Assembly (NCBI GenBank): GCA_964538855.1
Contig: CAZIEY010000001.1
Location: 245,389 to 309,388, forward strand
From: an uncultured Candidatus Saccharibacteria bacterium
GTDB lineage: Bacteria > Patescibacteriota > Minisyncoccia > Phycocordibacterales > JAACPR01
DNA length: 64,000 nt
Reading direction: 5' to 3'
The notes under the pieces were generated by a model. That model was not told the DNA's origin, searched no databases, and saw nothing but the letters and a program-made list of their open reading frames with translations. A program made the position numbers and the translations under genes. This document shows, piece by piece, positions 454 through 44,862 of this stretch. Position 1 is the first letter of the stretch. Every line of letters begins with the position of its first letter.

Positions 454-502
454 GAAGCAATTTTAGCGTGTTTCGAGAGAAAAGGAAAACACGATCTGAC
501 TA

Positions 503-1633: not shown

Positions 1634-1779
1634 TACAAGACTAATTCTTCCATATGTCTAGTATATAAACAATAATCTCGGCATATTAATCACATAGACT
1701 TGATTATACCTATAATATAGGCTATATTCTAGATTATAAATGTCGCCATTATTTTCGGCATTTTATACGCAAACACATC

Positions 1780-2508: not shown

Positions 2509-2510
2509 AA

Positions 2511-3104: not shown

Positions 3105-3137
3105 ATATAGAAATGTAACAAATTTAGCGCTCGTCGT

Positions 3138-4358
3138 CTAAATCACGTTCACGAGTGAGTACATCGGACTAATCATGGAAATTGCAAAGAATCCAACAAC
3201 AATACCGACGAGCACCATCAAGAACGGTTCGATAATTGTAGACATATTTTTCGTCTTTTGATCAACCTCATCTTCATAAAAAACAGCGACTTTGAGAAGC
3301 ATTTTACCGAGGTCTCCAGTTTCTTCACCAACAATCATCATTTCCGAAACGAAAACTGGATACAACGTGTCTGCCTCACGAAAAACCTTTGAAATCGGCA
3401 AACCGAGCTGAATATTTTTCTCAGCCTGTTCAATAGTTGCCTGATAATACGAATTTTGCACGACTTCACGCACAATTTGCAAGGAACGCACAAACGGCAC
3501 GCCAGCCGCCAAAAGAGATGCCAAGGTTCGTGTAGTACGCGCTGCGTTCACTTCTTTCACCAAAGGCGCAATGAGAGGCATATGAAGAAGGAACCAATCG
3601 CGACCCTGTCGCCCCTTCTTTGTCTTCAATCCAAAATAAATTCCGGCAAAAATCGCGGCGATGATCGCAATAAATGCGAGCCAATGATTTTGAGCAAAAT
3701 TACTGAGATTAATAATGAACATAGTCGAGCCAGGCAATTCCACCTTCAGTGCCGTAAAAGTATTTGTCAAAGTTGGCACAACATACACAAGTAAAAATAC
3801 ACCAATGATCACCATCGCGGAAATAATAACTCCTGGATACACCATGGCGCCCTTGATTTTCTTCTGCAAGGTATAGGTTTTTTCCATTTGCTCTGCAACC
3901 ACACCGAGAGCTTGAGACAAATTTCCCGACTCTTCACCAGATTGAACCATCGACACCATGAGTTGCGAGAACACATTCGGGAAATGAGTGAGTGCAGTCG
4001 AAAGTGGAGAACCTTTTTTGACACTGTCATTAATAAAGGCCAAAACCTTTTTCATTTTTTTGTTAGTGGTCTGACGTTCCATGACCGACAATGCACGCGA
4101 CAAAGACAAGCCCGCCTCGATCATCGCCGCTAAATTGCGATTGAAAATAATCTTTTCGTGTGTCGAAACCGTACCCATCGCCGACAATTTTACCCACAAC
4201 ATTTGCCAATTAAATGAGCCACTCTGTTTTATAGACAAAACACCCAGACCCTCAGAGCGCAAAGTTTTTTGCAGATCAGCCTCGTGCTCGGCAGTTCGAA
4301 TACCTTGGATAATTAGACCCTCTTTATTAAATGCTTTGAAATGAAATTCGGTTGCCAT
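3138..4358 (-). CDS. pilC: Type IV pilus assembly / type II secretion platform protein PilC (GspF family)
   Basis: 406 aa polytopic membrane protein with a duplicated GspF-type domain, immediately downstream of pilB. Confidence 0.85.
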   Translation of the reverse strand: MATEFHFKAFNKEGLIIQGIRTAEHEADLQKTLRSEGLGVLSIKQSGSFNWQMLWVKLSAMGTVSTHEKIIFNRNLAAMIEAGLSLSRALSVMERQTTNKKMKKVLAFINDSVKKGSPLSTALTHFPNVFSQLMVSMVQSGEESGNLSQALGVVAEQMEKTYTLQKKIKGAMVYPGVIISAMVIIGVFLLVYVVPTLTNTFTALKVELPGSTMFIINLSNFAQNHWLAFIAIIAAIFAGIYFGLKTKKGRQGRDWFLLHMPLIAPLVKEVNAARTTRTLASLLAAGVPFVRSLQIVREVVQNSYYQATIEQAEKNIQLGLPISKVFREADTLYPVFVSEMMIVGEETGDLGKMLLKVAVFYEDEVDQKTKNMSTIIEPFLMVLVGIVVGFFAISMISPMYSLVNVI

Positions 4359-4367
4359 AATATGAAA

Positions 4368-6104
4368 TTATTCAGAGATAACACGCAAAACCTCTTCGAT
4401 TGTTGTGTGTCCGAGAGCTGCTTTGTAAATTCCGTCTTCAAGCATAGTAAGCATGCCTTCGCTCTTGGCTTGATCCTCGATTTTTTCAGCAACCTCGCCT
4501 TTAATAATCAAATTACGAATAGTGTCGGTGACATGCAAAATTTCATGGATTCCAACTCGACCATGAAATCCATCATCGTCGCCTTCGGCAATCGGTTTAT
4601 AAAAAGGAATCTTTTTCCAAGTCGCGCCCACAGGAACTTCCTTTGCCTTAATCAAAGTCTCTAAAATCTTTTTCATGTCTGCTTTTTTCTCGAGCTGAGC
4701 GAGCGCTGGCGCTGTCAAAAAATATTTTTCTTTCTTGACGAGGCGACGTACCAAACGTTGCGCAATGATTACTTTTAAAGTTGAGACGAGCAAAAATGGC
4801 TCGGCACCCATATCGATCATACGCGGAATTGTTCCTGCCGCAGAATTTGTGTGAAGTGTCGAAAGAACAAGGTGACCAGTCAACGATGCATTAATTGCAA
4901 GTGACGCAGTCTCCCCATCTCGAATTTCCCCCACCATAATAATATCCGGGTCCTGACGCACCAACGTTCGTAAACCTTCAGAAAAAGAAAATCCAATATC
5001 CGGTTTCACCTGCGTTTGGTTAACGCGTTTCATTTGATATTCAATCGGATCTTCGACCGTTGAAATGTTCACGTCCGGCGTGTTAAGCAAATCCAAAAGC
5101 GTGTAGAGTGTCGTCGACTTTCCGGAACCAGTCGGACCAGTCGCCAAAATTAAACCGGTTGTTTGTTTGAGGGCTTCGTGAATTTGTTCCAAACCGTCGC
5201 CATGAAAACCGAGCGATTCCAAAGTAAATCCACCGCCACCTTCGCGCAAAATACGCATCACAGTTTTTTCTCCGTAATACACCGGCAAAATAGATACACG
5301 GAAAGAAACTTTTTCGGCATCAAGTTCAATTTTAAATCGTCCGTCCTGCGGTAAACGCTTTTCGTCGAGTTTCAAGTTCGACAAAACTTTGATACGCGCC
5401 GTGATCGCCCCGCCAACGTGTTTTGGCAACGTCATCGCATCGTGGAGCAAACCATCCACGCGATATCGCACCACCAATTCTTTTTCGGCTGGTTCGATAT
5501 GAATGTCGGATGCTCCCTGCAAAATTGCGTGCTTCAAAAGTGTGTCCACAATTTTCACCACTGGCAAATCAGCCGCGATTTTTTGTAAGTCATCTTCGCT
5601 CGTTTCTTCGCCGCCAGTATCCTTGATTTCGGCTGTCTGCGTTTTAATAATGTCTCCAAAATCCGCCTTCAAAGATTTCTGGTACTGAATAAGAGCCTTT
5701 TTAAGCGAATCAGTCGACGTGAGACGTGGCAAAATTCGCAACCCCGTTTTTTTATGTACGAAATCAATCGCCGACAAATCATCAGTGTCGAGCATGGCAA
5801 CCTCCAAATCCTTGCCGTTCTGTTTGTAGGCAATAATGTTGTGTTTGCGCGCAATCGGCTCAGGAATAATAGAGAGAACTTCGAAAGGAATTTTATTTGT
5901 GCCAGCGTCAATAAATGGAATTCCGAGGATGTAGGCCTGGACGCGTTTGAGATCATCTTCGGTGATTTTTCCTTCGCTCACCAAATAGTTTCCGAGCGTC
6001 ATCGATCCGTCCGCTACTTTTTTTTCGGCAGAGAGAATATCCTCACGACTGACGAGGCCAGAGTCAACAATAAACTCTTTTAATTTGTCATCCTCAATGT
6101 ACAC
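4368..6104 (-). CDS. pilB: Type IV pilus assembly ATPase PilB (GspE family)
   Basis: 578 aa with Walker A GPTGSGKSTT, Asp/His boxes and an N-terminal GspII-type domain. No C-terminal tetracysteine motif. Confidence 0.85.
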   Translation of the reverse strand: MYIEDDKLKEFIVDSGLVSREDILSAEKKVADGSMTLGNYLVSEGKITEDDLKRVQAYILGIPFIDAGTNKIPFEVLSIIPEPIARKHNIIAYKQNGKDLEVAMLDTDDLSAIDFVHKKTGLRILPRLTSTDSLKKALIQYQKSLKADFGDIIKTQTAEIKDTGGEETSEDDLQKIAADLPVVKIVDTLLKHAILQGASDIHIEPAEKELVVRYRVDGLLHDAMTLPKHVGGAITARIKVLSNLKLDEKRLPQDGRFKIELDAEKVSFRVSILPVYYGEKTVMRILREGGGGFTLESLGFHGDGLEQIHEALKQTTGLILATGPTGSGKSTTLYTLLDLLNTPDVNISTVEDPIEYQMKRVNQTQVKPDIGFSFSEGLRTLVRQDPDIIMVGEIRDGETASLAINASLTGHLVLSTLHTNSAAGTIPRMIDMGAEPFLLVSTLKVIIAQRLVRRLVKKEKYFLTAPALAQLEKKADMKKILETLIKAKEVPVGATWKKIPFYKPIAEGDDDGFHGRVGIHEILHVTDTIRNLIIKGEVAEKIEDQAKSEGMLTMLEDGIYKAALGHTTIEEVLRVISE

Positions 6105-6225
6105 GTTGCAATTATAGCAGGAGTTTTCAAATCTGCGGCGAGGTTTTTCAGTCTAAAAATAATTTGACACATGCAATTTAAAAGAATAAGGTTTTATAGA
6201 ATCCCAACCATAAGGAGTACGAACA

Positions 6226-6470
6226 TGGGAACGACATCAGTTCTGATCTTGATCCTTTGCCTCGGAATAATGACCTGGGCAGTCATCAAAGCCCCAAAAA
6301 AGCGGGGCGGCAAAAACATCAGCCAACCTCCTCAGAAAACCCCAAGTGCCATCGAGGAGGAGCAGCTGACCAAGGAAGGTAGGTGCCTGACCTGCAAACA
6401 AGTCATGCACAGGGGAAATCCGGATTGGGGTGGAGGTGTGTGCAGGCGGTGTTGGGGCATAAGCCATTGA
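6226..6470 (+). CDS. Small hypothetical protein: N-terminal TM helix and a C-terminal Cys-rich CxxC...CxxC tail
   Basis: AGGAG sits 7 nt upstream of the ATG at 6226. Coding GC is visibly higher than the neighbours. Own promoter-like TTGACA at 6164 and own terminator at 6492. Confidence 0.4.
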
Positions 6471-6491
6471 CCCCTCGCCAAGGGAATTGGG

Positions 6492-6535
6492 GGGCTGGAG
6501 CGTGTGGACATAACCACGCTCCAGCCCTTTTATAA
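6492..6535 (+). terminator. Rho-independent terminator
   Basis: 13-bp perfect stem GGGCTGGAGCGTG/CACGCTCCAGCCC followed by TTTTAT. Confidence 0.65.
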
Positions 6536-6538
6536 TAT

Positions 6539-6568
6539 TTGACAACTCCCTAAAAGTTTTGCTATTAT
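6539..6568 (+). promoter_or_regulatory. Sigma70-like promoter for nusA: TTGACA, 18-nt spacer, TATTAT
   Basis: Consensus -35 with a near-consensus -10, 110 nt upstream of the nusA ATG. Confidence 0.5.
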
Positions 6569-6677
6569 ATAGGGGTTACAGACAAGTTCGCCAACACCAG
6601 GCGGGCTCATTTTTTTAGGAAAAATGGCATTTCGGTGAATTATTAACGCGCGCAAGCGCACTTACAAACCAAAAAAC

Positions 6678-7868
6678 ATGTTCGATTTAAAAATCATCAA
6701 TTCAGTTCTCGCACAGCTCGAAGAAGAGCGCGGAATCCCAAAAGCAAAGATTATCGAAGCGATTGAACTCGCGCTCGGTACTGCATATAAAAAAGAGTAC
6801 GGCAAAAAAGGTCAAATCGTCAAAGCGAAATTCAATCTCGACAGTGGCGACGTGGAATTTTGGCAAACAAAAATTGTAGTCGACAAAGACTCTGTCATTA
6901 TGGAAGGTGACATTACCGAAGAAACTCCAGCAACTGTAGAAGGTACTGAAGAAGTTATGAAAGTTCGCTTCAACCCAGAACATCACATCTTGCTCGAAAA
7001 CGCGAAATTGATGAAGCGTGGCGCAAAAGTCGACGACGAAATTCTCTTCCCTCTCGAAAAGAAGGATGATTTCGGACGCATCTCTGCTCAAACCGCAAAA
7101 CAAGTCATCACTCAAAAGATTCGCGAAGCTGAAAAAGGTATCGTTATGTCAGAATACGGTGAAAAAGAAGGAGAAATTGTCTCTGGAACCGTCGAACGAA
7201 TCGAACGCGGAACTGTATTTTTGGATATGGGTCGCGCAATCGGAACACTCGCCTACGAAGAACAAATTCCAGGCCAGCGATTTAAACAAGGTGAGCGAGT
7301 TCGCGCATATCTTTTCCGCGTCGATGAAACTCCACGTGGTGTTTTCCTAAAACTCTCTCGTTCTCATCCTAAATTCCTCGAAGAATTATTCAAGGCAGAA
7401 GTTCCTGAAATTGCGTCCGGTACTATCGAAATTAAAGCCGTTGCTCGCGAAGCAGGTTCTCGTTCAAAGGTTGCCGTCATCACAAAAGATGATCATGTCG
7501 ATCCTGTCGGAGCGATGGTTGGTCAACGAGGTGTTCGTGTCAGCACAATTACGAGCGAACTTGGTGGAGAAAAAATCGACATTATCGAATGGTCTGAAAA
7601 TCCTACTGCTTTTATCGAAGAAGCCCTCTCTCCTGCGAAGATCTTGAATATCGAAACCGCAGAAACTCCAGAAGGTGGTAAAATTGCCAAAGTGACCGTT
7701 GCCGAAGATCAGCAATCACTCGCGATTGGTAAAGGTGGTCAAAACGTTCGTCTCGCTGCGAAATTGACTGGTTGGAAAATCGACATCCGATCAGATGCAA
7801 AACCAAAGGAAGACGCGGACGACGCAGTATCAACGGAAGAAACTTCAACAGAAACTAACCCAGCATAA
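6678..7868 (+). CDS. nusA: Transcription termination/antitermination factor NusA
   Basis: 396 aa with N-terminal, S1 and KH domains. Typical NusA start MFDLK... Confidence 0.9.
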   Translation: MFDLKIINSVLAQLEEERGIPKAKIIEAIELALGTAYKKEYGKKGQIVKAKFNLDSGDVEFWQTKIVVDKDSVIMEGDITEETPATVEGTEEVMKVRFNPEHHILLENAKLMKRGAKVDDEILFPLEKKDDFGRISAQTAKQVITQKIREAEKGIVMSEYGEKEGEIVSGTVERIERGTVFLDMGRAIGTLAYEEQIPGQRFKQGERVRAYLFRVDETPRGVFLKLSRSHPKFLEELFKAEVPEIASGTIEIKAVAREAGSRSKVAVITKDDHVDPVGAMVGQRGVRVSTITSELGGEKIDIIEWSENPTAFIEEALSPAKILNIETAETPEGGKIAKVTVAEDQQSLAIGKGGQNVRLAAKLTGWKIDIRSDAKPKEDADDAVSTEETSTETNPA

Positions 7869-7870
7869 AT

Positions 7871-8395
7871 ATGACAAACTTATTGCACGACATAGACCCA
7901 GGAACAAAGAGCGAGATGACCACAATCATCGAAATTAACCGCGGTTCAAAGAACAAGTACGAAATCGACAAAAAAACTGGCCTTATTGCGCTCGACCGAG
8001 CAATGCACACAGCCCAGGACTACCCTTTTGACTACGGGTTCGTTCCGCAAACATTATGGGATGACGGCGATGCATTAGACGTGGTTGTTTTGACAACATA
8101 TCCACTTTTCCCAGGCATTTTGGTTCGAGTTCGCCCAGTTGCCATCATTCACATGGTGGATAACGGTGAAAGTGACGCAAAAATCGTCGCTGTTCCAACA
8201 GAAGATCCTCGATTTGATGACGTGAATGACCTCAAAGACGTCAATAAACACACAATCAAAGAAATTGAACACTTCTTCCTCACTTACAAGAAAATTCAAA
8301 AGAAAGAAGTTACAATTAGTGGAATCGAAGGTCGCGAAGCAGCAGAAAAAGCATTCGAACGATCTCGAGAGATGTATAAAGCAAGTAAGAAATAA
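7871..8395 (+). CDS. ppa: Inorganic pyrophosphatase (family I)
   Basis: 174 aa with D-x-D-x-D...DDGD and ALDVVV motifs. Confidence 0.85.
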   Translation: MTNLLHDIDPGTKSEMTTIIEINRGSKNKYEIDKKTGLIALDRAMHTAQDYPFDYGFVPQTLWDDGDALDVVVLTTYPLFPGILVRVRPVAIIHMVDNGESDAKIVAVPTEDPRFDDVNDLKDVNKHTIKEIEHFFLTYKKIQKKEVTISGIEGREAAEKAFERSREMYKASKK

Positions 8396-8407
8396 GGCGT
8401 TCGCGAT

Positions 8408-8440
8408 AAAAAACTCTCTTTGTGAGGGTTTTTTATTTAC
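8408..8440 (+). terminator. Terminator-like hairpin after ppa
   Basis: AAAAAACTCTC...GAGGGTTTTTT stem followed by a T-run. Confidence 0.45.
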
Positions 8441-8495
8441 TTTTCCAAAACTAGTATATAATTATTGCATTATTAGTCGTTAATTAATTGAGCCA

Positions 8496-9359
8496 ATGAA
8501 AAAAAGTTTATACGTTTTATTAATGTGTGGTGTGTTGTTTGCCGGAACTACCGTATTCGCACGTGACGGCGCAAGCGGTGCTGACCGTGCTGATCGAATT
8601 GCAGAACGAGGAGCTGCATTAGAAGAAACACGCGCGGAACGCGAAGCGAAACTTGCCGAAAGAAAGGCTGAGTTTGAAGCAAAACAAGCTGAGCGCGAAG
8701 CAAAAATGGAAGAACGGCGTGCGGAAATTGAAACCAGAATCGCAGAACGAGGTGAAAAAGTCGAGGAACGCACCGCGAAACTCGAGCTCAAAATGGAGGA
8801 GCGTAAAGCCAAAATGGAAGAGCGAGGAGCGGAACGTGCAATCAGAATCGAGGAGCGAAAAACAAAAATCGAAGAGCGCTTTGAAAAAATGAAAGCAAAC
8901 GTTGCTGAACGAAAAGCAAAGTTTGATGAAAAACAAAAAGAACGCGTCGGGAAACTTTTCGACAGAATTTTTGCTACATTTGATCACGTCGCAGAAAAAC
9001 TCGCCAACATTGACGCACGAATTACAGCAAAATTAACTGCGCTCGAAGCCCGAGGTGTCGACACATCCGAAGCCGAAACAAAACTTGAAGCCGCAAAAGA
9101 TTCTCTCAACGCAACGCTCGCTGAAATTGCTTCTGTAAAAGAAACACTAAGTGGCGCAGTCAACGACGAGATGAGCAAAGAATTTGCAAAAGAATTAATT
9201 CAAGGCACAAAAGCTTCTCTCAAATCAACTCACGAAGCATATCGCGCAGTACTCGTATCTGTAAAAAAATCTGACGACGGTGCCGAAGACAAAGTAGAAG
9301 TGGAAAATGAATTTGAAACTGAACATGCAGACGATGTAGACACAGAAGACGCTCAATAA
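8496..9359 (+). CDS. Secreted coiled-coil protein with E/R/K-rich heptad-like repeats
   Basis: Signal peptide MKKSLYVLLMCGVLFAG, then repetitive ERKAK/EERxAE blocks. The DNA is internally repetitive. Confidence 0.55.
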   Translation: MKKSLYVLLMCGVLFAGTTVFARDGASGADRADRIAERGAALEETRAEREAKLAERKAEFEAKQAEREAKMEERRAEIETRIAERGEKVEERTAKLELKMEERKAKMEERGAERAIRIEERKTKIEERFEKMKANVAERKAKFDEKQKERVGKLFDRIFATFDHVAEKLANIDARITAKLTALEARGVDTSEAETKLEAAKDSLNATLAEIASVKETLSGAVNDEMSKEFAKELIQGTKASLKSTHEAYRAVLVSVKKSDDGAEDKVEVENEFETEHADDVDTEDAQ

Positions 9360-9382
9360 TTATTAACTGATATACTATACGT

Positions 9383-9688
9383 ATGGACTTCTCAAATAAT
9401 CAACCAAACAATTTCCCAAACACAATGCCAGGTGCAGTACCACCTAAAAAAGAAAGCGGAGTTGGACCAATTATCGGCTCAATTATTATTATCATATTAT
9501 TGGTTTTGGGTGCACTCTATTTCTACGGATCGATTGTAGAACGACGTCAAACACAGGGCGCTCGAACACCAGCTCTCAGTGAATCAACTCGTGTTGCCGA
9601 CATCGAATCAGACCTTAATGTTCCAGAGCTCGATACAGTTGATGCGGATATGGCAGAATTAGAGGCAGAAATTGACGCAGCATTGTAA
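9383..9688 (+). CDS. Small membrane protein, hypothetical
   Basis: 101 aa with one TM helix (IIGSIIIIILLVLGALYFYG) and an acidic C-terminus. Confidence 0.45.
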   Translation: MDFSNNQPNNFPNTMPGAVPPKKESGVGPIIGSIIIIILLVLGALYFYGSIVERRQTQGARTPALSESTRVADIESDLNVPELDTVDADMAELEAEIDAAL

Positions 9689-9698
9689 TGTAATAAAA

Positions 9699-9732
9699 AA
9701 GCGCGGATGACACACTGCTCCGTGCTTTTTTA
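9699..9732. terminator. Rho-independent terminator, A-run/T-run flanked
   Basis: AAAAAAGCGCGGA...TCCGTGCTTTTTT. Confidence 0.6.
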
Positions 9733-9776
9733 TTACCTTTGATTTTTTACCGATTTTCATATAGAATGCCGGAATC

Positions 9777-10865
9777 ATGTCAGATAAAAAAACAAACAAA
9801 AAACACGATTATAAAGTTTTGAGCAAGGACGAAAAACAAAAAGTTGCGACCTTAGAAATTGAATTGCCTGCCACAGCTCTAGAATCACACAAGGACAAGG
9901 CTCTCAAAAACCTCAGTAAACACATAGAGTTAAAAGGTTTCCGCAAAGGCACCGCTCCGGCCAAAATGGTCGAAGAAACCGTTGGACCAATGCATGTATT
10001 GGAAGAAATGGCACAACTTGCAATTTACGATGTTTTGCCGAACGTTATCGAAAACGAAAAAATCGAAGCCCTTCTCCAGCCGCGCATCGCTGTGACAAAA
10101 ATTGCTGCGGGTAATCCACTCGTATTCAAGGCGGAATTTGTGCTCGTACCCGACATCAAATTAGCTGACTACAAAAAGGTTGCGAAATCTGTCCCGGTAG
10201 AAAAAGACACCAAAATCACCGATAAAGAAATCGAGGAATACATTCAGTACCTTAGAAAATCTCGTGGTGAGGCGGAACATATGCGCCGCAAGACTTCAGC
10301 CGATGCAAAAGAACGTGAATTAGCTCTCGAATTAAAAGAAGCTCCCCTTCCTGAATTTAATGACGAATTTGTAAAAACTCTCGGTGATTTCAAAAACGCA
10401 GAAGAATTCAAAAAAGTTCTCAGCGAAAATATGCAAAAAGAGAAGGAAAACAAAGCTGCGCAAAAACGCCGACTTGAAATCATGGAGAAAATTATCGAAG
10501 CTTCTAAAATCGATTTGCCCGAAGTCATGATCGAAGATGAATTACATCGCATGATGCACCAATTCAGAGATGACATAGAGGCTGCGAAAATTGATTTTGC
10601 TGACTACATGAAGGAAATCAAAAAAACCGAGGACGATATGAAAAAAGAGTGGCGCCCTGACGCAATCAAGCGCGTCATGATGAATTTAATTGTGCCGAAA
10701 ATCGCGCTCGAAGAAAAAATCGAAGCTGACAAAAAACAAGTCGCGCATGAAGTCAAACACCTCCGAGAACATCACAAAGATCTCGATGAAGCCAAAGCAA
10801 CTGCGTACGTCTCATACATGCTGCGCAATGACGCCGTGTTTGCATTTCTTGAATCTATTAAATAA
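9777..10865 (+). CDS. tig: Trigger factor (short form, 362 aa)
   Basis: N-terminal ribosome-binding signature GFRKGTAP and the conserved tig-clpP order. Confidence 0.75.
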   Translation: MSDKKTNKKHDYKVLSKDEKQKVATLEIELPATALESHKDKALKNLSKHIELKGFRKGTAPAKMVEETVGPMHVLEEMAQLAIYDVLPNVIENEKIEALLQPRIAVTKIAAGNPLVFKAEFVLVPDIKLADYKKVAKSVPVEKDTKITDKEIEEYIQYLRKSRGEAEHMRRKTSADAKERELALELKEAPLPEFNDEFVKTLGDFKNAEEFKKVLSENMQKEKENKAAQKRRLEIMEKIIEASKIDLPEVMIEDELHRMMHQFRDDIEAAKIDFADYMKEIKKTEDDMKKEWRPDAIKRVMMNLIVPKIALEEKIEADKKQVAHEVKHLREHHKDLDEAKATAYVSYMLRNDAVFAFLESIK

Positions 10866-10893
10866 GCTATAATCAAACCTAACCACACATATT

Positions 10894-11475
10894 ATGTTAA
10901 TCCCAACCGTAATCGAGAAATCACAATTCGGCGAGCGTGCGTATGATATTTATTCGCGACTTCTCAAAGACAATATTATCTTTTTGAGCGGACCTATCGA
11001 CGATCATGTCGCAAACATTGTCATCGCGCAATTGCTATTTTTACAATCCGAAGATTCCAAAAAAGACATTTCGCTCTACATCAATTCACCGGGTGGTTCG
11101 ATCAGCGCAGGTCTTGCGATTATCGACGCGATGAATTACATCAAAAACGACATTACGACTGTTTGTGTTGGAATGGCTGCATCTATGGGTGCCGTTATTT
11201 TGTCAGCTGGTAAAAAAGGCAAGCGCTTCATTTTACCAAATGCCGAAGTCATGATTCATCAACCGCATGGTGGTGCCGAAGGTCAAGCTTCTGATATCGA
11301 AATCAGCGCGAAACGAATTATCAAAAGCCGCGAGACTTTGAATAAAATGCTCGCGAAAAACACCGGGCAGCCTCTCGCTCGAGTGGAAAAAGATGCCGAC
11401 CGAGACTTCTTTATGTCAGCCGAAGAAGCGAAAAAGTACGGCATTATCGACAAGATTTTGGTGGTTACGAAATAA
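10894..11475 (+). CDS. clpP: ATP-dependent Clp protease proteolytic subunit
   Basis: 193 aa with the Ser-His-Asp triad context (GMAASMGA..., MIHQP). Confidence 0.9.
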
Positions 11476-14640: not shown

Positions 14641-14754
14641 TTGCTTTTATAAAATACTTTGGCTAGACTGACAAAGGAGTCGATTTTATCGACAAGCTTC
14701 ACACACAGCTAAAGTGTGCAAATGAACACTGACAACGCATTGGAGGATTATCTC

Positions 14755-15696
14755 ATGATCAGGTTTTCGAATGGACATCAATTTGAGTACATGACCGCAG
14801 GTGGAGCACTCGGCTTCGACGGTCGTGGCTGGATGTGGGAATGGCCGTTGAAATGGTGCGGGCTAATGAAGCCTCGCCTCTTCACGATCGTTCTGCGAAC
14901 CCTAACTTCAGACCCACGAACATGGAACACTGATCCGGCGGCAAACTTGTCCTGGATTCGTCCGTGGACTTGGTTGCCCTGGAGTCCGTGGTCCTGCGTT
15001 CGGTTCTTGCCGAACGGTGGCGCAGTCAACAAGGTCGGTCTTTATAACCCCGGCATTGATTGGTGGTGCAATGAAGTTGCGCCACATCTCGACTACGCAA
15101 ACCAACCTCTGGTCGGTTCAATCTTTGGGAACGAAGACGAACTGGTCCCGATGGCGCACCGAATGGACGCCTACGATCTAGTTGGACTTGAAGTCAACTG
15201 TTCCTGCCCGAACTCTGGGCACAGAATGGACGCGGTGGCCAAAGTGGTGGAGGGAGTGTCTGCAGTGAAGGCCAGGTCTCGACATCCCATCATTGTTAAG
15301 GTCTCCGTTGATCAAGATTACATCGCCATCGCACGCGGACTCAAAGGAATTGCGGAAGCGATCTCCCTGAACAGTGTTCCCTGGAACACTGCGTTTCCAG
15401 GAGGGGCGTGCAAAACCCCTCTCTGGAGACTTGAAAAGCGAGTCAAGGGTGGAGGTGGCGGTGTGTCCGGGAAACCGGCACAACGAGCCAACTGGAAAGC
15501 TGTCGAGGAATTGGCGGCTGACGGTTCGCTTCCTGTTATTGGGCCAAGCATCATGGAATACGAAGACATGGATCGTGTCCGGACTCTCGGCGCAAAAGCC
15601 GTGAGTTTCGGCGCGATTCACCTTCGCACTCCATGGAGGCCAACGCAATTCGTTGAAAGAGAAACCCTGAAACAGAAAGGACAAGGTGGAGTATGA
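14755..15696 (+). CDS. pyrD: Dihydroorotate dehydrogenase family protein (class-1-like, Cys in the SCPN motif). The N-terminal third is unusually Trp-rich.
   Basis: GGAGGA SD precedes the ATG at 14755. Motifs GFDGRG, KPRLF, NKVGLYNPG, LEVNCSCPNSG and the GGGGVSG...GPSIMEYED tail match DHODH. The gene is about 57% GC. Confidence 0.65.
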   Translation: MIRFSNGHQFEYMTAGGALGFDGRGWMWEWPLKWCGLMKPRLFTIVLRTLTSDPRTWNTDPAANLSWIRPWTWLPWSPWSCVRFLPNGGAVNKVGLYNPGIDWWCNEVAPHLDYANQPLVGSIFGNEDELVPMAHRMDAYDLVGLEVNCSCPNSGHRMDAVAKVVEGVSAVKARSRHPIIVKVSVDQDYIAIARGLKGIAEAISLNSVPWNTAFPGGACKTPLWRLEKRVKGGGGGVSGKPAQRANWKAVEELAADGSLPVIGPSIMEYEDMDRVRTLGAKAVSFGAIHLRTPWRPTQFVERETLKQKGQGGV

Positions 15697-16742
15697 GCAA
15701 AGTACAACTGAGGATTCGCAGGTGGTTTGAGCGCCACTTGCACGTTCGCGATGGTGCGATGATGAGCGCAGTACTCCCGTGCACGATTCAACAACGTGCG
15801 ACGGGAGCGATCATCATGCCGAATCTACAGCCCGACCCGATCACCACGATCGAAAGGGCAGAGGCCTATCGTGATCGGATTCTGGCCGCTCGCGGCGACT
15901 CCGACTTTGTGCCATGCATGACCTGCTATCTGACGGATCACACCGATCCCGAAGAAGTCGTGAGAGGTTTCAAAGGAGGCGTCTGGCGAGCAGTGAAACT
16001 CTACATGGCCAATCAACAAGGCCAAGGTGGAACCACTGGTTCGGCACATGGCGTGAGAGATCTACTCAGCCGCTACTCGGTGTTTGAAGCAATGGAAGAA
16101 CATCAAATTCCACTGCTCGGACATTTTGAAGCGGTTGAGGACGATGTTGACGAATTCGATCGCGAGATCGTCTCCGTTGACCGCGATCTCGCGCCCATTC
16201 TGGGGCATTTCCCGAAATTGCCGGTGGTCTTTGAGCACCTCACGGACGGACGCGCAGCGGAATATGTCGCCTCGCTCGGTGACAACGTCAATGCCACAGT
16301 GACGGCGCATCATCTCATGATCAATCGGAATGCAATGTTTGCGGGAGGAATGAATCCTACCAACTACTGCAGACCGGTGCCGAAACGTGAGAAACACCGC
16401 CTGAAGGTTCGCAAGTATGTGACGGATGGAAACAAACATTTCGGAGCAGGGACTGACTCTGCGCCACATGATGTTTCCAAAAAATCACAGCCTTGTGGCT
16501 GTGCTGCGGGAATATTCACCGCACCGAATGCTGTGGAACTGTACACTCAGGTGTTCGACGAGGACGGCGCGCTCGACAAACTCGCAGCGTTTCTCTCGGA
16601 AAATTTCCTGGACATCTACGGCATGAAGCCCAGCGATCAGATGATGGTCATTGAGCGGAAACCTTTCGAGGTGCCCGACACAGTGAACAACGTCAAAGTC
16701 TTCAAGGGTGGTGAGGTCCTCCCCTGGAAACTCGTTGGGTGA
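15693..16742 (+). CDS. pyrC: Dihydroorotase, type II (E. coli PyrC-like)
   Basis: 349 aa aligns end-to-end by eye with E. coli PyrC (HLHVRDG, IMPNL, MTCYLTD, VFEHLT, GTDSAPH, CGCAG). ATGA overlap with pyrD. GC-rich. Confidence 0.85.
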   Translation: MSKVQLRIRRWFERHLHVRDGAMMSAVLPCTIQQRATGAIIMPNLQPDPITTIERAEAYRDRILAARGDSDFVPCMTCYLTDHTDPEEVVRGFKGGVWRAVKLYMANQQGQGGTTGSAHGVRDLLSRYSVFEAMEEHQIPLLGHFEAVEDDVDEFDREIVSVDRDLAPILGHFPKLPVVFEHLTDGRAAEYVASLGDNVNATVTAHHLMINRNAMFAGGMNPTNYCRPVPKREKHRLKVRKYVTDGNKHFGAGTDSAPHDVSKKSQPCGCAAGIFTAPNAVELYTQVFDEDGALDKLAAFLSENFLDIYGMKPSDQMMVIERKPFEVPDTVNNVKVFKGGEVLPWKLVG

Positions 16743-16843: not shown

Positions 16844-16917
16844 TGGTGCGGGCAGGGAGAATCGAACTCCCGTCTACTGCTTGGAAGGCAGTCATTCTAC
16901 CACTAAACCATGCCCGC
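16844..16917 (-). tRNA. tRNA-Gly(TCC), CCA encoded
   Basis: Cloverleaf folds by hand: acceptor GCGGGCA/TGCCCGC, anticodon loop CTTCCAA, T-loop TTCGATT. Confidence 0.85.
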
Positions 16918-16985
16918 GATTAGAAAAATATAGCAGGAAACGAACTTTTATTCAACTCCTTAATCTCTCTGTGTCTCTGAAATTT

Positions 16986-17123
16986 TACATGACTTACATA
17001 TGATTTTTAAGTGGGCTTTCGGAGGACGTTCGGTTTCTCCCAAGTAACGTCCGAGAACGAGCTGAGTTTTTCCGATAGGAAAAACTACAGCGTACCAATC
17101 AAAAATCATATGTAAGTCATGTA
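16986..17123. repeat. Inverted-repeat-bounded element: 23-bp perfect IR, or a 21-bp terminal inverted repeat CATGACTTACATATGATTTTT flanked by TA on both sides (MITE-like).
   Basis: Left arm 16986-17008 equals the reverse complement of right arm 17101-17123 exactly. The 92-nt interior has internal hairpins. It sits in the promoter/5' region of the 17147 gene. Confidence 0.5.
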
Positions 17124-17146
17124 GAATTTCTGATATACTCTATTTC

Positions 17147-18451
17147 ATGCCACTTCTCGTTCGAATAATTGCCCAGCGCGCACTCGTCGGTATCGGTGCA
17201 GTTATGACCTTTTTTGGAATTGCACCAGAAGCACACATCCCAGACAAAACTCAAATTGTCGCGCAGGTTGAGGAGCGCCAAAACATCATCGTAGAAACTG
17301 TTACAGGTTCTGTCCAAGATAACAACAAAAAACCTGATGAAGTTCCACCGCTCTCGCCTGCCCCAACAGATCCTGTAGTGCCAGCTCGACAAAATCCGAT
17401 TCAAACACAAACTCCAGCTAACCCTCCGAAATTTACCTCGGTTACTGTTCAAACTCCAATTCAAACAAACTTAGAAGAAATCACCGAAACCATTCGAACC
17501 GAAATCGAACATTCAATAGAAGAAATTATTCGCCCCGAAGAGAGACCAGAACCAATTCCGACACCAACACAAGTTCCGCAACCAGAACCGGTACGCAAAC
17601 CTGATCCAGAACCAGAAAAACCAGCATTTTCATCTGACCTCGCGAGCGTCCTCGTAAACATCATTTGCACCCACACAAACGGATCTGCAACAACTGCCTC
17701 AACCGGGAGCGGAGTTATCGTGTCCCCTAGCGGCGTCGTACTCACAAATGCCCACGTCGCGCAATATTTTCTTCTGAAAAACTATTCGCGTCCAAACTTC
17801 CAAACTTGCGCCCTTTATCAGGAAAATATTCCAAATTACGGCTTCAGAGCAGATATTTTATATATTCAACCAGAGTGGGTTAACAAACATTACGACACTA
17901 TCGTCAGCAAAAATCCACGCGGAACCGGCGAGGATGATTATGCGTTTCTAATCATCACCGGCAACACAAACCCAGGACTTTCCCTTCCATCAAAATTCAA
18001 CTACGCACCAATTTCGACGAGCGAGTCTAATTACGATATCGACACAAACATTGATGTCGGAGGTTTCCCTGGTGCACCTGCTTCTATTTTAGACTTGGCC
18101 CGAGCAGGAAGTCTCAAGACCGACAGTACCACAATCACTGATGTCTTTACTCTCGAGAAAAATTCGGTCGACGTCATTTCTACCGACACCACGCCTGTGG
18201 CCCAAAGAGGTGCCTCTGGTGGTGGAGTTTTCCGAAATGGTGAATTGATCGGAATCACTGTCACAACATCAGGAAGCGGTCGAAATGCGAAAATTAACGC
18301 CCTTACTACCGGCTACATCAACCGCGATTTGCGTTCCGACATCGGCACCAGTATTTCTGCCTTTATTTCCGGCGATGTACGCGGACGATCTGCACGATTT
18401 ATACAAGAAGAGTTGCCGGCGCTCGCTGAACTATTGGGTGGGCAGTTGTAA
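17147..18451 (+). CDS. Secreted trypsin-like serine peptidase domain protein with a Pro/Thr-rich linker
   Basis: N-terminal TM/signal. The C-terminal half carries VLTNAHVAQ (His box) and GASGGGVF (Ser box) spacing typical of the S1 family. Confidence 0.55.
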   Translation: MPLLVRIIAQRALVGIGAVMTFFGIAPEAHIPDKTQIVAQVEERQNIIVETVTGSVQDNNKKPDEVPPLSPAPTDPVVPARQNPIQTQTPANPPKFTSVTVQTPIQTNLEEITETIRTEIEHSIEEIIRPEERPEPIPTPTQVPQPEPVRKPDPEPEKPAFSSDLASVLVNIICTHTNGSATTASTGSGVIVSPSGVVLTNAHVAQYFLLKNYSRPNFQTCALYQENIPNYGFRADILYIQPEWVNKHYDTIVSKNPRGTGEDDYAFLIITGNTNPGLSLPSKFNYAPISTSESNYDIDTNIDVGGFPGAPASILDLARAGSLKTDSTTITDVFTLEKNSVDVISTDTTPVAQRGASGGGVFRNGELIGITVTTSGSGRNAKINALTTGYINRDLRSDIGTSISAFISGDVRGRSARFIQEELPALAELLGGQL

Positions 18452-20272: not shown

Positions 20273-20773
20273 TTATTCAATCACGTTCTCGATAAACTCC
20301 ACCCGACCGATCATATCCGGCATGAAAAACACCACCGAAGCAACGTCTATTTGAAATTCTGTTTCATGAAGAACATTTTTTTCGGCTAAATACAGTGAGA
20401 TCGTGCGTTTCATACGTAACATCTTAAGCCGATTCACGGACTCAAGCGGATTATATCCCGAAAAATCATCCATTACGATCCCCAACCCATCATATGTTGT
20501 AATGTCCTTTGAAACGGTTTTGACCTCTATAAAATGCAAGACACCGTCCTTCTTTGCCACAATATCAATTTCTCCACACCTTCGGAGAAAATTCCTATCC
20601 AAGATCTGCATACCCTTCTCTGACTTTAACATTTCACACACAATTCCCTCTCCCCAATTCCCAAACTGGCGTTTTTGACTATATTTTTTAACAGAATCCT
20701 CGGCTACCTGTCCTATAAAGTCGGGCATTTTAAAAATTTCACTATCTACCCCATCATTATTTTTGTTATACAT
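20273..20773 (-). CDS. YraN-family (UPF0102) endonuclease
   Basis: 166 aa with the GEIDIVA...LHFIEVKT core. Confidence 0.65.
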   Translation of the reverse strand: MYNKNNDGVDSEIFKMPDFIGQVAEDSVKKYSQKRQFGNWGEGIVCEMLKSEKGMQILDRNFLRRCGEIDIVAKKDGVLHFIEVKTVSKDITTYDGLGIVMDDFSGYNPLESVNRLKMLRMKRTISLYLAEKNVLHETEFQIDVASVVFFMPDMIGRVEFIENVIE

Positions 20774-20879
20774 GTTTCATGAATAACATATCCGGTATGA
20801 AGAAGTGATAAATAAACAATGTAGAAATAATGAATTTTACAGACTAATAATCCACAGTGAATTGTTATTCATGAAACAA
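20773..20879. promoter_or_regulatory. 16-bp perfect inverted repeat TGTTTCATGAATAACA / TGTTATTCATGAAACA spanning the yraN start codon and its 5' region
   Basis: Arms at 20773-20788 and 20864-20879. The proximal arm abuts the yraN AUG. Confidence 0.4.
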
Positions 20880-21070
20880 GTTATGTAGTTTCACGTGAAA
20901 CATAGGTCTTTTATCCACTCAAAGACAGATTTGACAAAAGGTCAAATATATCCTTACTTTACAACATATTTTAACGTTTTGCCTACTTGTAAAAGACTAA
21001 AAGATGATGTCTTTTATACACATGTCCCCAGTCTTATCCACAGTTTTGGGGATACGGTCTTATAGACTCT

Positions 21071-22804: not shown

Positions 22805-22973
22805 GGGGTTTTTGGGTATAAAAAAACTACATAGAAATTTCCTGAAAAAAGCTGGCCAGTATACGGCTGCGCATCGTGATACGTTTAGTATTCGGATGCA
22901 AAGTGGGTTTTGGGGATGTATTTTATTTATTGTTGTAGCCAAACAAGTGGGATTGTTTTGACTCGCCGTGGCA

Positions 22974-23026
22974 AGTAGAGGAATTTGATCGCTTCTGATA
23001 AACAGAAGTAAGCAAATTCCTCTACT
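22974..23026. other. Stable extended stem-loop in a 500-bp intergenic region
   Basis: 13-bp stem GTAGAGGAATTTG/CAAATTCCTCTAC encloses a second 6-bp hairpin CTTCTG...CAGAAG. No T-run follows. Confidence 0.35.
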
Positions 23027-23246
23027 CGACAAGACTGTGCCGTACCCGCCACACTACGTGAAATTTATATATAGTTTTTTATTCTACTGTCTGGCGATAG
23101 CACCGCATAAAGTTTTGAGCCACAAGGGGCGAACCGCGCGCATGCCAGATTATTTTAATGAACAGAAATGAACTAACCTGAAGATAGTATACGTCCTATA
23201 AAGGACATATGTAAAGGACATGGATGTGGATAACTGAATGTCCTTA

Positions 23247-23300
23247 ATAAAAACTCTTAATTTTAAAGTCCTCGGGTCGCATCACGCACGTTCTATTTAA
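23247..23300. repeat. Truncated copy of the palindromic intergenic repeat family (left arm plus core)
   Basis: AATAAAAACTCTTAATTTTAAAGTCCTCGGGTCGCATCACGCACGTTC matches the arm and core of the copies at 44863 and 52981. Confidence 0.5.
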
Positions 23301-24103: not shown

Positions 24104-25069
24104 TTATGCCTGCTCACTTTTCCCGTGAAACTTTTTGTGCACATCTCGCAAATGTTTGTCGGTGACGTGCGTATAAATTTGCGTCGTCGCGATATTCGAG
24201 TGACCAAGCATTGCTTGAACAGAACGCAAGTCTGCTCCGTTCGATAGCAAATCTGTTGCAAAACAATGACGAATCACGTGCGGTGTTACCTTTTTGGAAA
24301 TGCCGGCGATAGTCGCGTAGCGTTTTACAATGCGCTCGATTGATCGACGAGTCAAACCATCCTCTTTATTTTCCGGCTGTGTCCCACGTTTTTTCTCGTC
24401 GGAAATTTTTACAAAAAGTGCATCCGACATGTCTTTGCGAAGTTTCAAATATGCAGACACTGCTTTTTTCGCGCTGTCTGAAATAAAAACGACGCGCACC
24501 TTACCACCCTTACCACGAATCGACAGTTCATCTTGACCCAAGTCGATATCATTACCAAGCGAACACAATTCCGAGACACGCAAACCAGTCGAGAAGAGTA
24601 GTTGCAAAATAGCGTGACCACGAGCAGATTTTTCCGGGTCCTTGTCCTGATTCGGAGCATTGAGAAGACGCTTCAATTCATCGCGTGAAATAACATCTAT
24701 GGTTCGCTCACCAACTTTAGCAAGCTCGATTTGGTCGGCGGGGAGGGAAGTGATGCCACGGCGTGTCAAAAATTTTAAAAAAGTCCGCAAAGCAATCATG
24801 TAGTAATTCTGAGTCTTCTTTTTCATCGTCTCGCCGGTCGCGCGATTATTTCCAGCCGACTGTCGATTGAGCCACATACGGAACTCACGCACCACCGTTT
24901 CCGTGAGCTGTTTCGGTCCAGTAATTTTTGTCTGATTAATAAAAACCGTTAGATAGTGGTCATAATTTTGAATTGTGCGAAGAGCGCGACCCTTCTCGAT
25001 TTCGATATATTCGAGAAATTGCCGCTTGAGAGACTGAATTTCACTAGTTTGAGTCATACTTGTTGCCAA
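24104..25069 (-). CDS. Tyrosine site-specific recombinase XerC/XerD family
   Basis: 321 aa with C-terminal RHCFATDLL...LGHSNIATTQIYTHV and the catalytic R..HxxR..Y pattern. Confidence 0.8.
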   Translation of the reverse strand: MATSMTQTSEIQSLKRQFLEYIEIEKGRALRTIQNYDHYLTVFINQTKITGPKQLTETVVREFRMWLNRQSAGNNRATGETMKKKTQNYYMIALRTFLKFLTRRGITSLPADQIELAKVGERTIDVISRDELKRLLNAPNQDKDPEKSARGHAILQLLFSTGLRVSELCSLGNDIDLGQDELSIRGKGGKVRVVFISDSAKKAVSAYLKLRKDMSDALFVKISDEKKRGTQPENKEDGLTRRSIERIVKRYATIAGISKKVTPHVIRHCFATDLLSNGADLRSVQAMLGHSNIATTQIYTHVTDKHLRDVHKKFHGKSEQA

Positions 25070-44859: not shown

Positions 44860-44862
44860 GGG

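What the first reader, a model, noticed from the sequence alone, without database searches (positions are those of the whole stretch)
16986..17123. MITE-like element with 21-bp perfect terminal inverted repeats flanked by TA in the protease gene promoter
CATGACTTACATATGATTTTT and its exact reverse complement bound a 92-nt interior that folds into at least two hairpins (GGACGTT...AACGTCC; GTTTTTCC-GATA-GGAAAAAC). Both ends are flanked by TA, consistent with a Tc1/mariner or IS630-type TA target duplication.

The right end overlaps the -35 region of a TATACT -10 about 10 nt before the serine-peptidase gene (17147). The insertion may therefore supply or modulate that promoter. A paired operator (DNA looping) is an alternative explanation.
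Basis: seen in the sequence. Interest (0 to 1): 0.55.

Follow-up and report, generated by a model that had tools for sequence, protein, structure and literature searches.

The report
Palindromic insertion splitting a protease promoter
A 134-138 bp hairpin-forming DNA segment has been inserted, in this one Paceibacterota (CPR) lineage only, between the back-to-back promoters of a glycine tRNA gene and a membrane protease gene. It looks like a small non-autonomous mobile element, but no second copy and no transposase could be found.

Summary
The arms are perfect over 23 nt (16986-17008 / 17101-17123) and continue imperfectly to 16971/17138. They enclose a 92-nt interior with two hairpins.

Comparison with 18 orthologous tRNA-Gly(tcc)/protease loci from related Paceibacterota shows that none carries the element. 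Their intergenic regions are 58-144 nt; the window's is 229 nt. With the element removed, the window aligns end to end with its closest relatives. It is therefore a lineage-specific insertion, not a conserved operator pair.

It sits between the tRNA promoter and the protease's conserved promoter. That promoter is an extended -10 (TGnTATAMT) lying 6-7 nt before the ATG, so the mRNA is probably leaderless. The -10 is ancestral; the element supplies only the DNA at the -35/UP position.

The MITE label is only partly supported:
- The flanking "TA" is self-complementary, so it cannot be told apart from two more palindrome bases.
- No other copy exists in the window, in about 343 kb of related loci, or in the GTDB, JGI or IMG/VR scans.
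- No transposase was found in the window.

Verdict: an orphan MITE-like insertion of modest interest. Two other hairpin elements in the window, both conserved in relatives, are probably more interesting.

The parts
16986..17008 (.). Left arm, 23 nt perfect (TA + CATGACTTACATATGATTTTT). It contains a -10-like TATGAT at 16999-17004.
17009..17100 (.). 92-nt non-palindromic interior. Hairpin 1 is 17024-17052 (GGACGTT/AACGTCC, 15-nt loop). Hairpin 2 is 17061-17091 (core AGTTTTTCC-GATA-GGAAAAACT at 17065-17086).
17101..17123 (.). Right arm, 23 nt perfect (AAAAATCATATGTAAGTCATG + TA). It covers the -35 position (17111-17116) and the proximal UP position of the protease promoter.
16971..16985 (.). Left outer imperfect arm (GTGTCTCTGAAATTT). 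It includes CTGAAA at 16977-16982, a -35-like hexamer 16 nt upstream of the arm's TATGAT. It may be the ancestral protease -35 or part of the target palindrome.
17124..17138 (.). Right outer imperfect arm (GAATTTCTGATATAC). It overlaps the ancestral TG-extended -10, so this part is target DNA rather than element.
17131..17139 (+). Extended -10 of the protease gene (TGaTATACT), 7 nt before the ATG at 17147. It is conserved in position in the relatives, so the mRNA is inferred to be leaderless.
   Evidence: TATAAT-like hexamer exactly 6 nt before the ATG in 15 of the 18 listed loci (my count)
16927..16955 (-). tRNA-Gly promoter (TTGAAT-17 nt-TATATT, with TG before the -10), left intact by the insertion.
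16844..16917 (-). tRNA-Gly(tcc) gene, the conserved divergent neighbour of the protease gene.
17147..18451 (+). Trypsin_2 serine peptidase gene. My reading of the translation is that it has a hydrophobic N-terminal anchor.

Best explanation
The element is a lineage-specific insertion of a small, non-coding, palindrome-ended DNA segment. It spans 16988-17121, or 16986-17123 if TA is counted. The most likely reading is an orphan MITE-like non-autonomous mobile element.

It landed at, or created, a TA in the short spacer between two back-to-back promoters. One is the tRNA-Gly(tcc) promoter on the minus strand. The other is the leaderless, extended -10 promoter of a membrane-anchored trypsin-like protease on the plus strand.

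Shown:
- The inverted repeat is real.
- The element is absent from every orthologous site examined.
- The flanks align collinearly with the relatives' empty sites.
- The tRNA promoter and the protease -10 are intact and ancestral.

Inferred:
- The element arrived by transposition in trans.
- The protease is still transcribed from TGaTATACT, which by established knowledge of extended -10 promoters does not need a -35.
- The element's effect is limited to replacing the -35/UP DNA. Its right arm starts with an A-tract, AAAAATCA, at about -46 to -39.
- It may add an upstream hybrid promoter, CTGAAA-16 nt-TATGAT (16977-17004). That promoter would give a 137-nt structured leader.
For: - The arms are perfect over 23 nt and no shuffle reproduces them.
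- The element is small. The only ORF is a 49-aa minus-strand frame with no family match.
- All 18 orthologous tRNA-Gly(tcc)/protease intergenic regions are 58-144 nt against 229 nt here, and none carries the element. This includes the closest locus, L002, whose protease is 86% identical.
- With 16988-17121 and one TA removed, the window aligns end to end with L002 and L006.
- The tRNA promoter and the TGnTATAMT box near the ATG are conserved across the relatives.
- There is no Rfam family match on either strand.
- The element is present in two assemblies.
Against: - No second copy, solo arm or related TIR exists in the 64-kb window (up to 3 mismatches).
- There is no sequence relative in about 283 kb of related Paceibacterota loci, no IS-like distant inverted repeat with these arms in the 407 kb of window plus loci, and no match in phage or plasmid collections.
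- The exact arm is absent from GTDB species representatives, JGI metagenomes and IMG/VR. The interior hairpins are absent from IMG/VR.
- No transposase or reverse transcriptase was found among the window's proteins scanned with Pfam.
- The TA flanks cannot be distinguished from two more palindrome bases. The repeat also continues into DNA that is ancestral on the right side (17124-17138), which a simple cut-and-paste insertion does not predict.
- The right arm plus flank shows in-register similarity to the promoter-upstream DNA of relatives: L009/L017 19 of 30, p <= 0.001; L002 16 of 30, p = 0.006. This hints that part of an arm may derive from the target.
Confidence: 0.5

Rival explanations
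1. Locally generated palindrome. A roughly 92-nt foreign or rearranged segment entered the promoter spacer. About 23-38 nt of adjacent promoter DNA was copied in inverted orientation, by template switching or fold-back repair, or the insertion hit the centre of an existing imperfect dyad whose arms were later homogenised. The arms would then be target-derived rather than transposase-binding ends.
For: - The repeat extends 11 of 15 positions beyond the TA into the right flank. That flank is ancestral promoter DNA: TTTCTGnTATACT is conserved in relatives.
- The right arm plus flank is similar, ungapped and in register with the -10, to relatives' upstream DNA (L009/L017 19 of 30, p <= 0.001; L002 p = 0.006; L006 p = 0.037).
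- The left flank plus arm resembles L002's spacer (p = 0.04). It also shares a 13-mer, TGAAATTTTACAT, with L023's promoter at the orthologous place.
Against: - The arm-only alignments are not significant (p = 0.04-0.67).
- The in-register p-values are marginal after 14 comparisons.
- The sequences are AT-rich and promoter-like, which inflates similarity.
- The simple-insertion model already gives a full-length collinear alignment.
- The origin of the interior is unexplained.
Confidence: 0.17
2. A lineage-specific structured small-RNA gene or RNA-level hairpin element, of the same general kind as the window's other long-stem elements. It would be transcribed from promoter-like sequences in its own arms and would act as RNA, either as an sRNA or as a structured leader of the protease mRNA.
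For: - The fold is very stable (z about -11) with a three-way junction.
- Two of the four outer-arm mismatches are G.U on the + strand.
- CTGAAA-16 nt-TATGAT is a promoter-like site pointing into the element.
- The same window holds other long-stem elements that are conserved in relatives and show compensatory change.
- A 22-nt motif, TTCGGAGGACGTTC--GGTTTC, is shared with one of them.
Against: - A transcript from the arm promoter would start after the left arm, so the long stem could not form in it.
- There is no terminator and no Rfam match.
- With a single sequence no covariation test is possible.
- A covariance model of the conserved 56564-56732 element scores this element at 18.8 bits. 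That is below the unrelated AT-rich hairpins, so it is a generic hairpin score.
- The shared motif is borderline (1 of 300 shuffles over 20 comparisons).
- The element is absent from all relatives.
Confidence: 0.15
3. Invertible promoter-proximal switch (inverton). The 21-23-bp inverted repeats would be recombinase sites, and the 92-bp interior would flip to modulate expression of the protease gene.
For: Inverted repeats of this length flank a short segment directly upstream of a gene for an exported or membrane protein, which is the usual geometry of invertons (established knowledge of phase-variable promoters). A tyrosine recombinase gene lies 7 kb away at 24104-25069.
Against: - The gene's conserved -10 lies outside the repeats, and the -35 position lies inside an arm that does not change on inversion.
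- No promoter-like site was found in the interior.
- The recombinase is the conserved chromosomal Xer-type gene, present at the same place in relatives that lack the element.
- Both assemblies show one orientation.
Confidence: 0.06
4. Conserved regulatory palindrome or paired operators for DNA looping.
For: The arm centres are 115 bp apart, about 11 helical turns. TrmB-family regulator genes are common in this neighbourhood.
Against: - The element is absent from all 18 orthologous promoters, including the closest.
- Each arm holds only a 6-bp internal palindrome (CATATG).
- The real conserved operators of this genome look different: TGTTTCATGAAnAACA and GTTTCACGTGAAAC at 20360-20905.
Confidence: 0.04

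Closest known systems
Bacterial MITEs with TA-flanked ends mobilised by IS630/Tc1-type transposases. Examples recalled from the literature, not compared by sequence here: RUP of Streptococcus pneumoniae (about 107 bp) and Correia elements of Neisseria (about 100-155 bp, 26-bp TIRs).
   Same: - Size of 134-138 bp with long terminal inverted repeats and no convincing ORF.
- A stable fold-back structure.
- An intergenic site next to a promoter, with TA at both ends.
- Presence/absence at orthologous sites.
- Possible promoter-like hexamers in the ends.
   Different: - Only a single copy is known, with no family and no cognate transposase.
- TA cannot be shown to be a duplication.
- The repeat runs on into flanking ancestral DNA.
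- No sequence comparison with those families was possible, because no IS or MITE library is among the tools.
The window's own long-stem hairpin elements. 'Family B' lies at 44862-44983, 52982-53069 and 23249-23300 (half copy). The element conserved upstream of ruvB lies at 56564-56732.
   Same: - The architecture: 23-33-nt near-perfect arms closing a structured interior of 30-120 nt, in an intergenic position.
- Gain and loss at some orthologous sites. Family B is present 3' of tRNA-Gly(gcc) in L002 and L003 but absent there in the window.
   Different: - Those elements are conserved in related genomes and show compensatory arm changes.
- Family B copies sit at gene 3' ends or between convergent genes; the 56564-56732 element sits upstream of ruvB.
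- The finding is unique to one lineage, sits inside a divergent promoter, and shares with them only a borderline 22-nt motif.
Invertons (phase-variable invertible promoters)
   Same: Inverted repeats of about 20 bp bracket a short segment immediately upstream of a gene for an exported protein.
   Different: There is no promoter in the invertible part, the promoter lies outside the repeats, no adjacent invertase exists, and only one orientation has been seen.

Membership tests
MITE (generic definition) | Small (under about 600 bp), with no transposase or other convincing ORF | tested here: met
   The element is 134-138 bp. The only ORFs of at least 20 aa are short frames. The 49-aa one has no Pfam match and a single borderline library hit judged to be chance.
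MITE (generic definition) | Terminal inverted repeats | tested here: met
   The arms are 23 nt and perfect; none of 100 shuffles matched.
MITE (generic definition) | Direct target-site duplication flanking the ends | tested here: inconclusive
   TA occurs on both sides. TA is self-complementary and the inverted repeat continues 11 of 15 positions beyond it, so a duplication cannot be told from palindrome extension. The promoter spacer reconstructed from my count is 17 nt without a duplication and 15 nt with one.
MITE (generic definition) | Several dispersed copies in the genome | tested here: not met
   There is no further copy in the 64-kb window with up to 3 mismatches in the arm or by blastn-short. 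The rest of the source genome could not be read, so this holds only for about 64 kb.
MITE (generic definition) | Empty orthologous sites (presence/absence polymorphism) | tested here: met
   All 18 orthologous loci lack it. The window minus the element aligns with L002 and L006.
MITE (generic definition) | A related autonomous IS with matching ends | tested here: not met
   No transposase was found among the window's proteins scanned with Pfam. No IS-like distant inverted repeat with these arms was found in the 407 kb of window plus related loci. The exact arm is absent from GTDB representatives, JGI metagenomes and IMG/VR. The source genome as a whole is not testable.
IS630/Tc1-mariner-derived MITE | TA duplication plus TIR similarity to an IS630-family member | not testable with these tools
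   No ISfinder-type library is available, and the TA is ambiguous (see above).
Inverton | Both orientations of the segment present in the population, with a promoter inside the invertible segment | tested here: inconclusive
   The two assemblies show the same orientation, but reads could not be examined. No promoter-like site was found in the interior.
Retron non-coding RNA (considered because of the terminal inverted repeats next to a protease gene) | An adjacent reverse transcriptase gene | tested here: not met
   No RT domain occurs in any neighbouring ORF. The tRNA-Gly/protease pair is conserved without the element.
Any described RNA family (Rfam 15) | A covariance-model match at or near the gathering score | tested here: not met
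   Only tRNAs reach the gathering score in the window. The local E-value search gives only generic hairpin or microRNA-precursor noise.

The most novel reading that the evidence does not exclude
The element is a newly inserted member of an undescribed class of long-stem hairpin elements in Paceibacterota, together with 'family B' and the 56564-56732 element. In this class the conserved part is the structured core, while the 23-33-nt arms are free to change provided they stay complementary. Members can be gained and lost at orthologous sites. That would be a mobile or duplicative RNA-structure element, not a transposase-dependent MITE.
Probability: 0.12. Interest if true: 0.6.

Novelty: new member of a known kind. 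Interest (0 to 1): 0.3.

Why it matters
CPR (Patescibacteria) genomes are small and are usually described as poor in mobile DNA. I found no paper describing a MITE in them, so a documented MITE-like insertion would be a small addition to that picture.

The site is instructive. The element splits a deeply conserved pair of back-to-back promoters. It leaves a leaderless extended -10 promoter without its original upstream DNA. This is a natural test of how much such promoters need a -35 or UP region.

As a single orphan copy with no demonstrated mobility or effect, it is not a major finding.

Tried and rejected
- **Rfam**, at gathering and E-value thresholds, found nothing but tRNAs and generic hairpin hits.
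- **Exact 21-nt or 19-nt arm**: no hits in GTDB representatives, JGI metagenomes or IMG/VR. The interior hairpin 20-mer and 23-mer gave none in IMG/VR. The source genome itself is evidently not in these collections, so the scans only test for spread to other genomes.
- **blastn against phages and plasmids**: no match.
- **The search for related loci on GTDB genomes** with the single protease: no relatives, because the peptide patterns came from the variable N-terminus.
- **Extending the genome** by looking up ORFs near the window ends failed, because the exact products are not on record. Look-ups of the protease and TrmB return only one Logan contig of the same organism. There are therefore no strain-level presence/absence data.
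- **One protein search was wasted** on a mis-set minus-strand range.
- **tRNA-derived (SINE-like) origin of the interior**: suggested by GTTCGGTTTCTCCC against the T-arm GTTCGATTCTCCC, but not significant (p = 0.07).
- **Homology to the conserved 56564-56732 element**: the covariance model gives only a generic long-hairpin score.
- **Arms as ancestral spacer DNA**: arm-only alignments are not significant.
- **49-aa minus-strand ORF**: one hit in 1.84 billion representatives, to a protein with two DUF4367 domains (E = 2.6e-4). The ORF does not match the DUF4367 profile itself, so I treat the hit as chance.
- **Retron, integrase att site, CRISPR-type and DNA cruciform readings**: rejected on context. 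There is no RT. The element is 5' of the tRNA, not at its 3' end. A 92-nt spacer is unfavourable for cruciform extrusion (established knowledge).

Full report
**1. The observation**

The sequence is as described. CATGACTTACATATGATTTTT lies at 16988-17008 and its exact reverse complement at 17101-17121, enclosing 92 nt. No dinucleotide-preserving shuffle of the window gave a match even with three mismatches.

The TA dinucleotides on either side are complementary to each other, so the perfect arms are 23 nt. The repeat continues imperfectly to 16971/17138: 44-nt arms at 86%. By my count, 11 of the 15 positions beyond the TA pair.

The interior holds the two reported hairpins, at 17024-17052 and 17061-17091. 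The whole stretch folds into a long stem closing a three-way junction. As RNA it gives -74.7 kcal/mol on the + strand and -70.9 on the - strand (z about -11 for both). As DNA it gives -38.4 kcal/mol.

The identical sequence occurs in an independent Logan assembly of SRR13208906. It is internal to the contigs and has a non-palindromic interior, so it is not a fold-back artefact.

**2. Context**

The window comes from a Candidatus Paceibacterota (CPR) genome, judging by the names attached to protease and RuvB relatives.

The element lies between tRNA-Gly(tcc) on the minus strand (16844-16917) and a Trypsin_2 peptidase gene on the plus strand (17147-18451). It therefore sits in a divergent promoter region, not at a gene's 3' end.

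The tRNA has a good sigma-70-type promoter on the minus strand (TTGAAT-17 nt-TATATT, 16955-16927). The protease has TGaTATACT at 17131-17139, 7 nt before its ATG.

**3. Comparative test**

I collected the orthologous locus from relatives in two ways. One was exact look-up of protease homologues. The other was a scan of JGI metagenomes with a protease alignment.

In 18 loci the same tRNA-Gly(tcc) gene lies directly upstream of the protease gene. It is divergent in 17 of them; in L014 ARAGORN places it on the + strand. The intergenic distance is 58-144 nt, against 229 nt in the window.

None of the loci contains the element, its arms or its interior. This includes L002 from GCA_964412465.1, whose protease is 86% identical and whose intergenic region is 97 nt.

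If 16988-17121 and one TA are removed, the window is 93 nt long and aligns end to end with L002 and L006. The element is therefore an insertion specific to this lineage. The reverse scenario, loss in every other lineage, is far less parsimonious.

This disposes of the 'conserved paired operator' alternative.

**4. What the insertion did to the promoters**

All relatives keep the same design. It comprises the reverse-complement tRNA promoter (AATATA ... TTCAAC) and a TATAAT-like hexamer, usually preceded by TG. That hexamer lies exactly 6 nt before the ATG in 15 of the 18 listed loci (my count). In the window the distance is 7 nt.

With a transcription start about 7 nt after the -10, the mRNA starts at or next to the A of the ATG, so it is leaderless. 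This is an inference from spacing and conservation, not a measurement.

The -10 and its TG are therefore ancestral. The element did not bring them. Its right arm now fills the -35 position (17111-17116, TGTAAG). Its A-tract, AAAAATCA, falls at about -46 to -39, where a proximal UP subsite would lie. By established knowledge, extended -10 promoters do not depend on a -35, so the gene probably remains expressed.

On the left, CTGAAA (16977-16982) lies 16 nt upstream of the arm's TATGAT. In distant relatives ATGAAA sits 16 nt upstream of the protease -10. L023 even shares the 13-mer TGAAATTTTACAT at that place. CTGAAA may therefore be the old -35, now separated from its -10.

By my count, the reconstructed spacer is 17 nt if TA was not duplicated and 15 nt if it was. 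Together with TATGAT, CTGAAA forms a hybrid promoter-like site pointing into the element. If used, it would give a 137-nt structured leader. This step is speculative.

**5. Is it a MITE?**

Met:
- small size
- long terminal inverted repeats
- no convincing ORF
- stable fold-back
- empty orthologous sites

Not met or not testable:
- *Target-site duplication.* TA is self-complementary, and the repeat continues beyond it into DNA that is ancestral on the right side. TA is not evidence of a duplication.
- *Copy number.* There is no other copy in the window, none in about 283 kb of related loci, and no match to the exact arm in GTDB representatives, JGI metagenomes or IMG/VR. These collections evidently do not contain the source genome, because they did not return the element's own locus. 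The rest of that genome could not be read. A low-copy family cannot be excluded: 64 kb is probably less than a tenth of the genome (my estimate).
- *Transposase.* None was found among the window's proteins scanned with Pfam. The only recombinase is the Xer-type gene at 24104-25069, which relatives lacking the element also have at the same place. No IS-like structure with these ends occurs in the 407 kb of window plus related loci.

I therefore call it MITE-like, with 0.5 confidence that it arrived by transposition. I do not accept the IS630/Tc1 assignment.

**6. Rival readings**

*(a) Local inverted duplication, or insertion at the centre of an existing dyad.* The outer imperfect repeat overlaps the ancestral -10 region. 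The right arm plus flank is also similar, ungapped and in register with the -10, to the upstream DNA of relatives: L009/L017 19 of 30, p <= 0.001; L002 16 of 30, p = 0.006. However, arm-only alignments are not significant, and these are AT-rich promoter sequences. I leave this as an unexplained observation and give the reading 0.17.

*(b) A structured RNA.* The fold is striking, but there is no terminator, no Rfam match and no possibility of a covariation test. A transcript from the arm's own promoter-like site would also lack the left arm.

*(c) An inverton.* The geometry fits, but the promoter lies outside the repeats and only one orientation is seen.

*(d) Retron, att site or cruciform.* All rejected on context.

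**7. Other long-stem elements in the same window**

The window contains other long inverted repeats, and these behave differently.

*'Family B'.* Copies lie at 44862-44983, 52982-53069 and 23249-23300 (a half copy). The conserved core is GTCTGGTTGAGC-[short or about 42-nt hairpin]-GACCCGAGGAC, closed by 27-33-nt AT-rich arms.
- Copies occur at the same two sites in L045.
- A copy lies 3' of tRNA-Gly(gcc) in L002 and L003, a site that is empty in the window.
- Within each copy the arms are 91-100% complementary. Between copies they are only 59-83% identical.
- 16 of 37 stem pairs show compensatory change among four copies.

*The element at 56564-56732, upstream of ruvB.*
- It is nearly invariant in three related genomes, while the surrounding synteny is about 67-93% identical in blastn.
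- It has a 25-bp closing stem, a bubble with small hairpins and a long terminal stem. This resembles 6S RNA in architecture only.
- G.U/A-U exchanges favour the window's + strand.

Neither element matches Rfam. The finding shares only a 22-nt motif with the ruvB-upstream element (1 of 300 shuffles over 20 comparisons). It scores no better than any long hairpin against that element's covariance model. I see no demonstrated relationship, but a common class cannot be excluded. That is the 'novel case', with probability 0.12.

**8. Verdict**

It is best described as an orphan MITE-like palindromic insertion in a conserved leaderless promoter region of a CPR bacterium. That makes it a new member of a known kind, of modest interest (0.3).

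Noticed in passing
window 44862-44983, 52982-53069, 23249-23300; L045 12376-12495 and 20478-20602; L002 14669-14796; L003 7562-7650: 'Family B' hairpin elements. A conserved core, GTCTGGTTGAGC-[GAAAGC-type short loop or about 42-nt hairpin]-GACCCGAGGAC, is closed by 27-33-nt AT-rich arms. The arms are 91-100% complementary within a copy but only 59-83% identical between copies. The elements lie between convergent genes or 3' of tRNA-Gly(gcc), are kept at orthologous sites in relatives, and that tRNA site is empty in the window. There is no Rfam match. They may be an undescribed structured RNA or terminator family.
   Followed up: partly
window 56564-56732 (terminator-like hairpin at 56745-56802); L045 9744-9912, L047 5744-5912, L048 5788-5954: A roughly 170-nt structured element upstream of ruvB. 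It is nearly invariant in related genomes whose surrounding DNA is about 67-93% identical in blastn. It has a 25-bp closing stem, a central bubble with small hairpins and a long terminal stem, so the architecture resembles 6S RNA. G.U/A-U exchanges favour the + strand. There is no Rfam match, and no paper on 6S RNA in CPR was found.
   Followed up: partly
window 17018-17037 and 56616-56636: A shared 22-nt motif, TTCGGAGGACGTTC--GGTTTC versus TTC-GAGGACGTTCCTGGTTTC, links the finding's interior and the ruvB-upstream element. The only two exact GAGGACGTTC 10-mers in the window fall in these two elements. Significance is borderline (1 of 300 shuffles, 20 comparisons).
   Followed up: partly
window 17131-17149 and the orthologous sites in L002-L040: The protease gene has a TGnTATAMT box exactly 6 nt (7 nt in the window) before its ATG in most relatives. 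This implies a deeply conserved leaderless mRNA that shares a compact back-to-back promoter region with tRNA-Gly(tcc).
   Followed up: partly
window 20360-20905; L002 14380-14500; also L018, L020, L025, L040: Repeated operator-like palindromes, TGTTTCATGAAnAACA and GTTTCACGTGAAAC, lie upstream of the UPF0102/NERD gene and next to the tRNA-Arg/tRNA-Gly(gcc) cluster. They are conserved across distant relatives and are probably binding sites of a conserved regulator.
   Followed up: no
window 14716-16742: Two genes lie between the 90-aa ORF after RNase Y (HU in relatives) and tRNA-Gly(tcc): a DHO_dh-domain protein and a 349-aa protein with no Pfam match. They have higher G+C (0.50 against about 0.42). 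In L003 HU is followed directly by the tRNA. L002 and L005 have other genes there (TrmB, periplasmic binding proteins). The 3' side of this tRNA therefore looks like a variable island site.
   Followed up: no
L003/L045 (JGI contig Ga0502760_0000045) versus the window: RuvB is 99% identical in protein between this contig and the window, but the protease is only 54% identical. The protease (N-terminal region especially) evolves very fast, or the locus has been exchanged.
   Followed up: no
L025/L026 (JGI contig Ga0100385_1000037), locus positions 1-11356: A perfect 5,678-nt inverted repeat with no spacer in a metagenome contig. This is almost certainly an assembly fold-back chimera, worth remembering when using that contig.
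   Followed up: no
window 16960-17109, minus strand: A 49-aa ORF spans the whole element. It has a single hit in 1.84 billion representatives (E = 2.6e-4), to the C-terminal part of both DUF4367 repeats of P0241. The ORF does not match the DUF4367 profile itself, so I judged the hit to be chance.
   Followed up: yes
window 22969-23031: A 29-nt-arm hairpin (83% complementary, 5-nt loop) lies in the long spacer between the CCA-adding enzyme gene and the Exo_endo_phos gene, about 220 nt from the family B half copy. Not examined.
   Followed up: no
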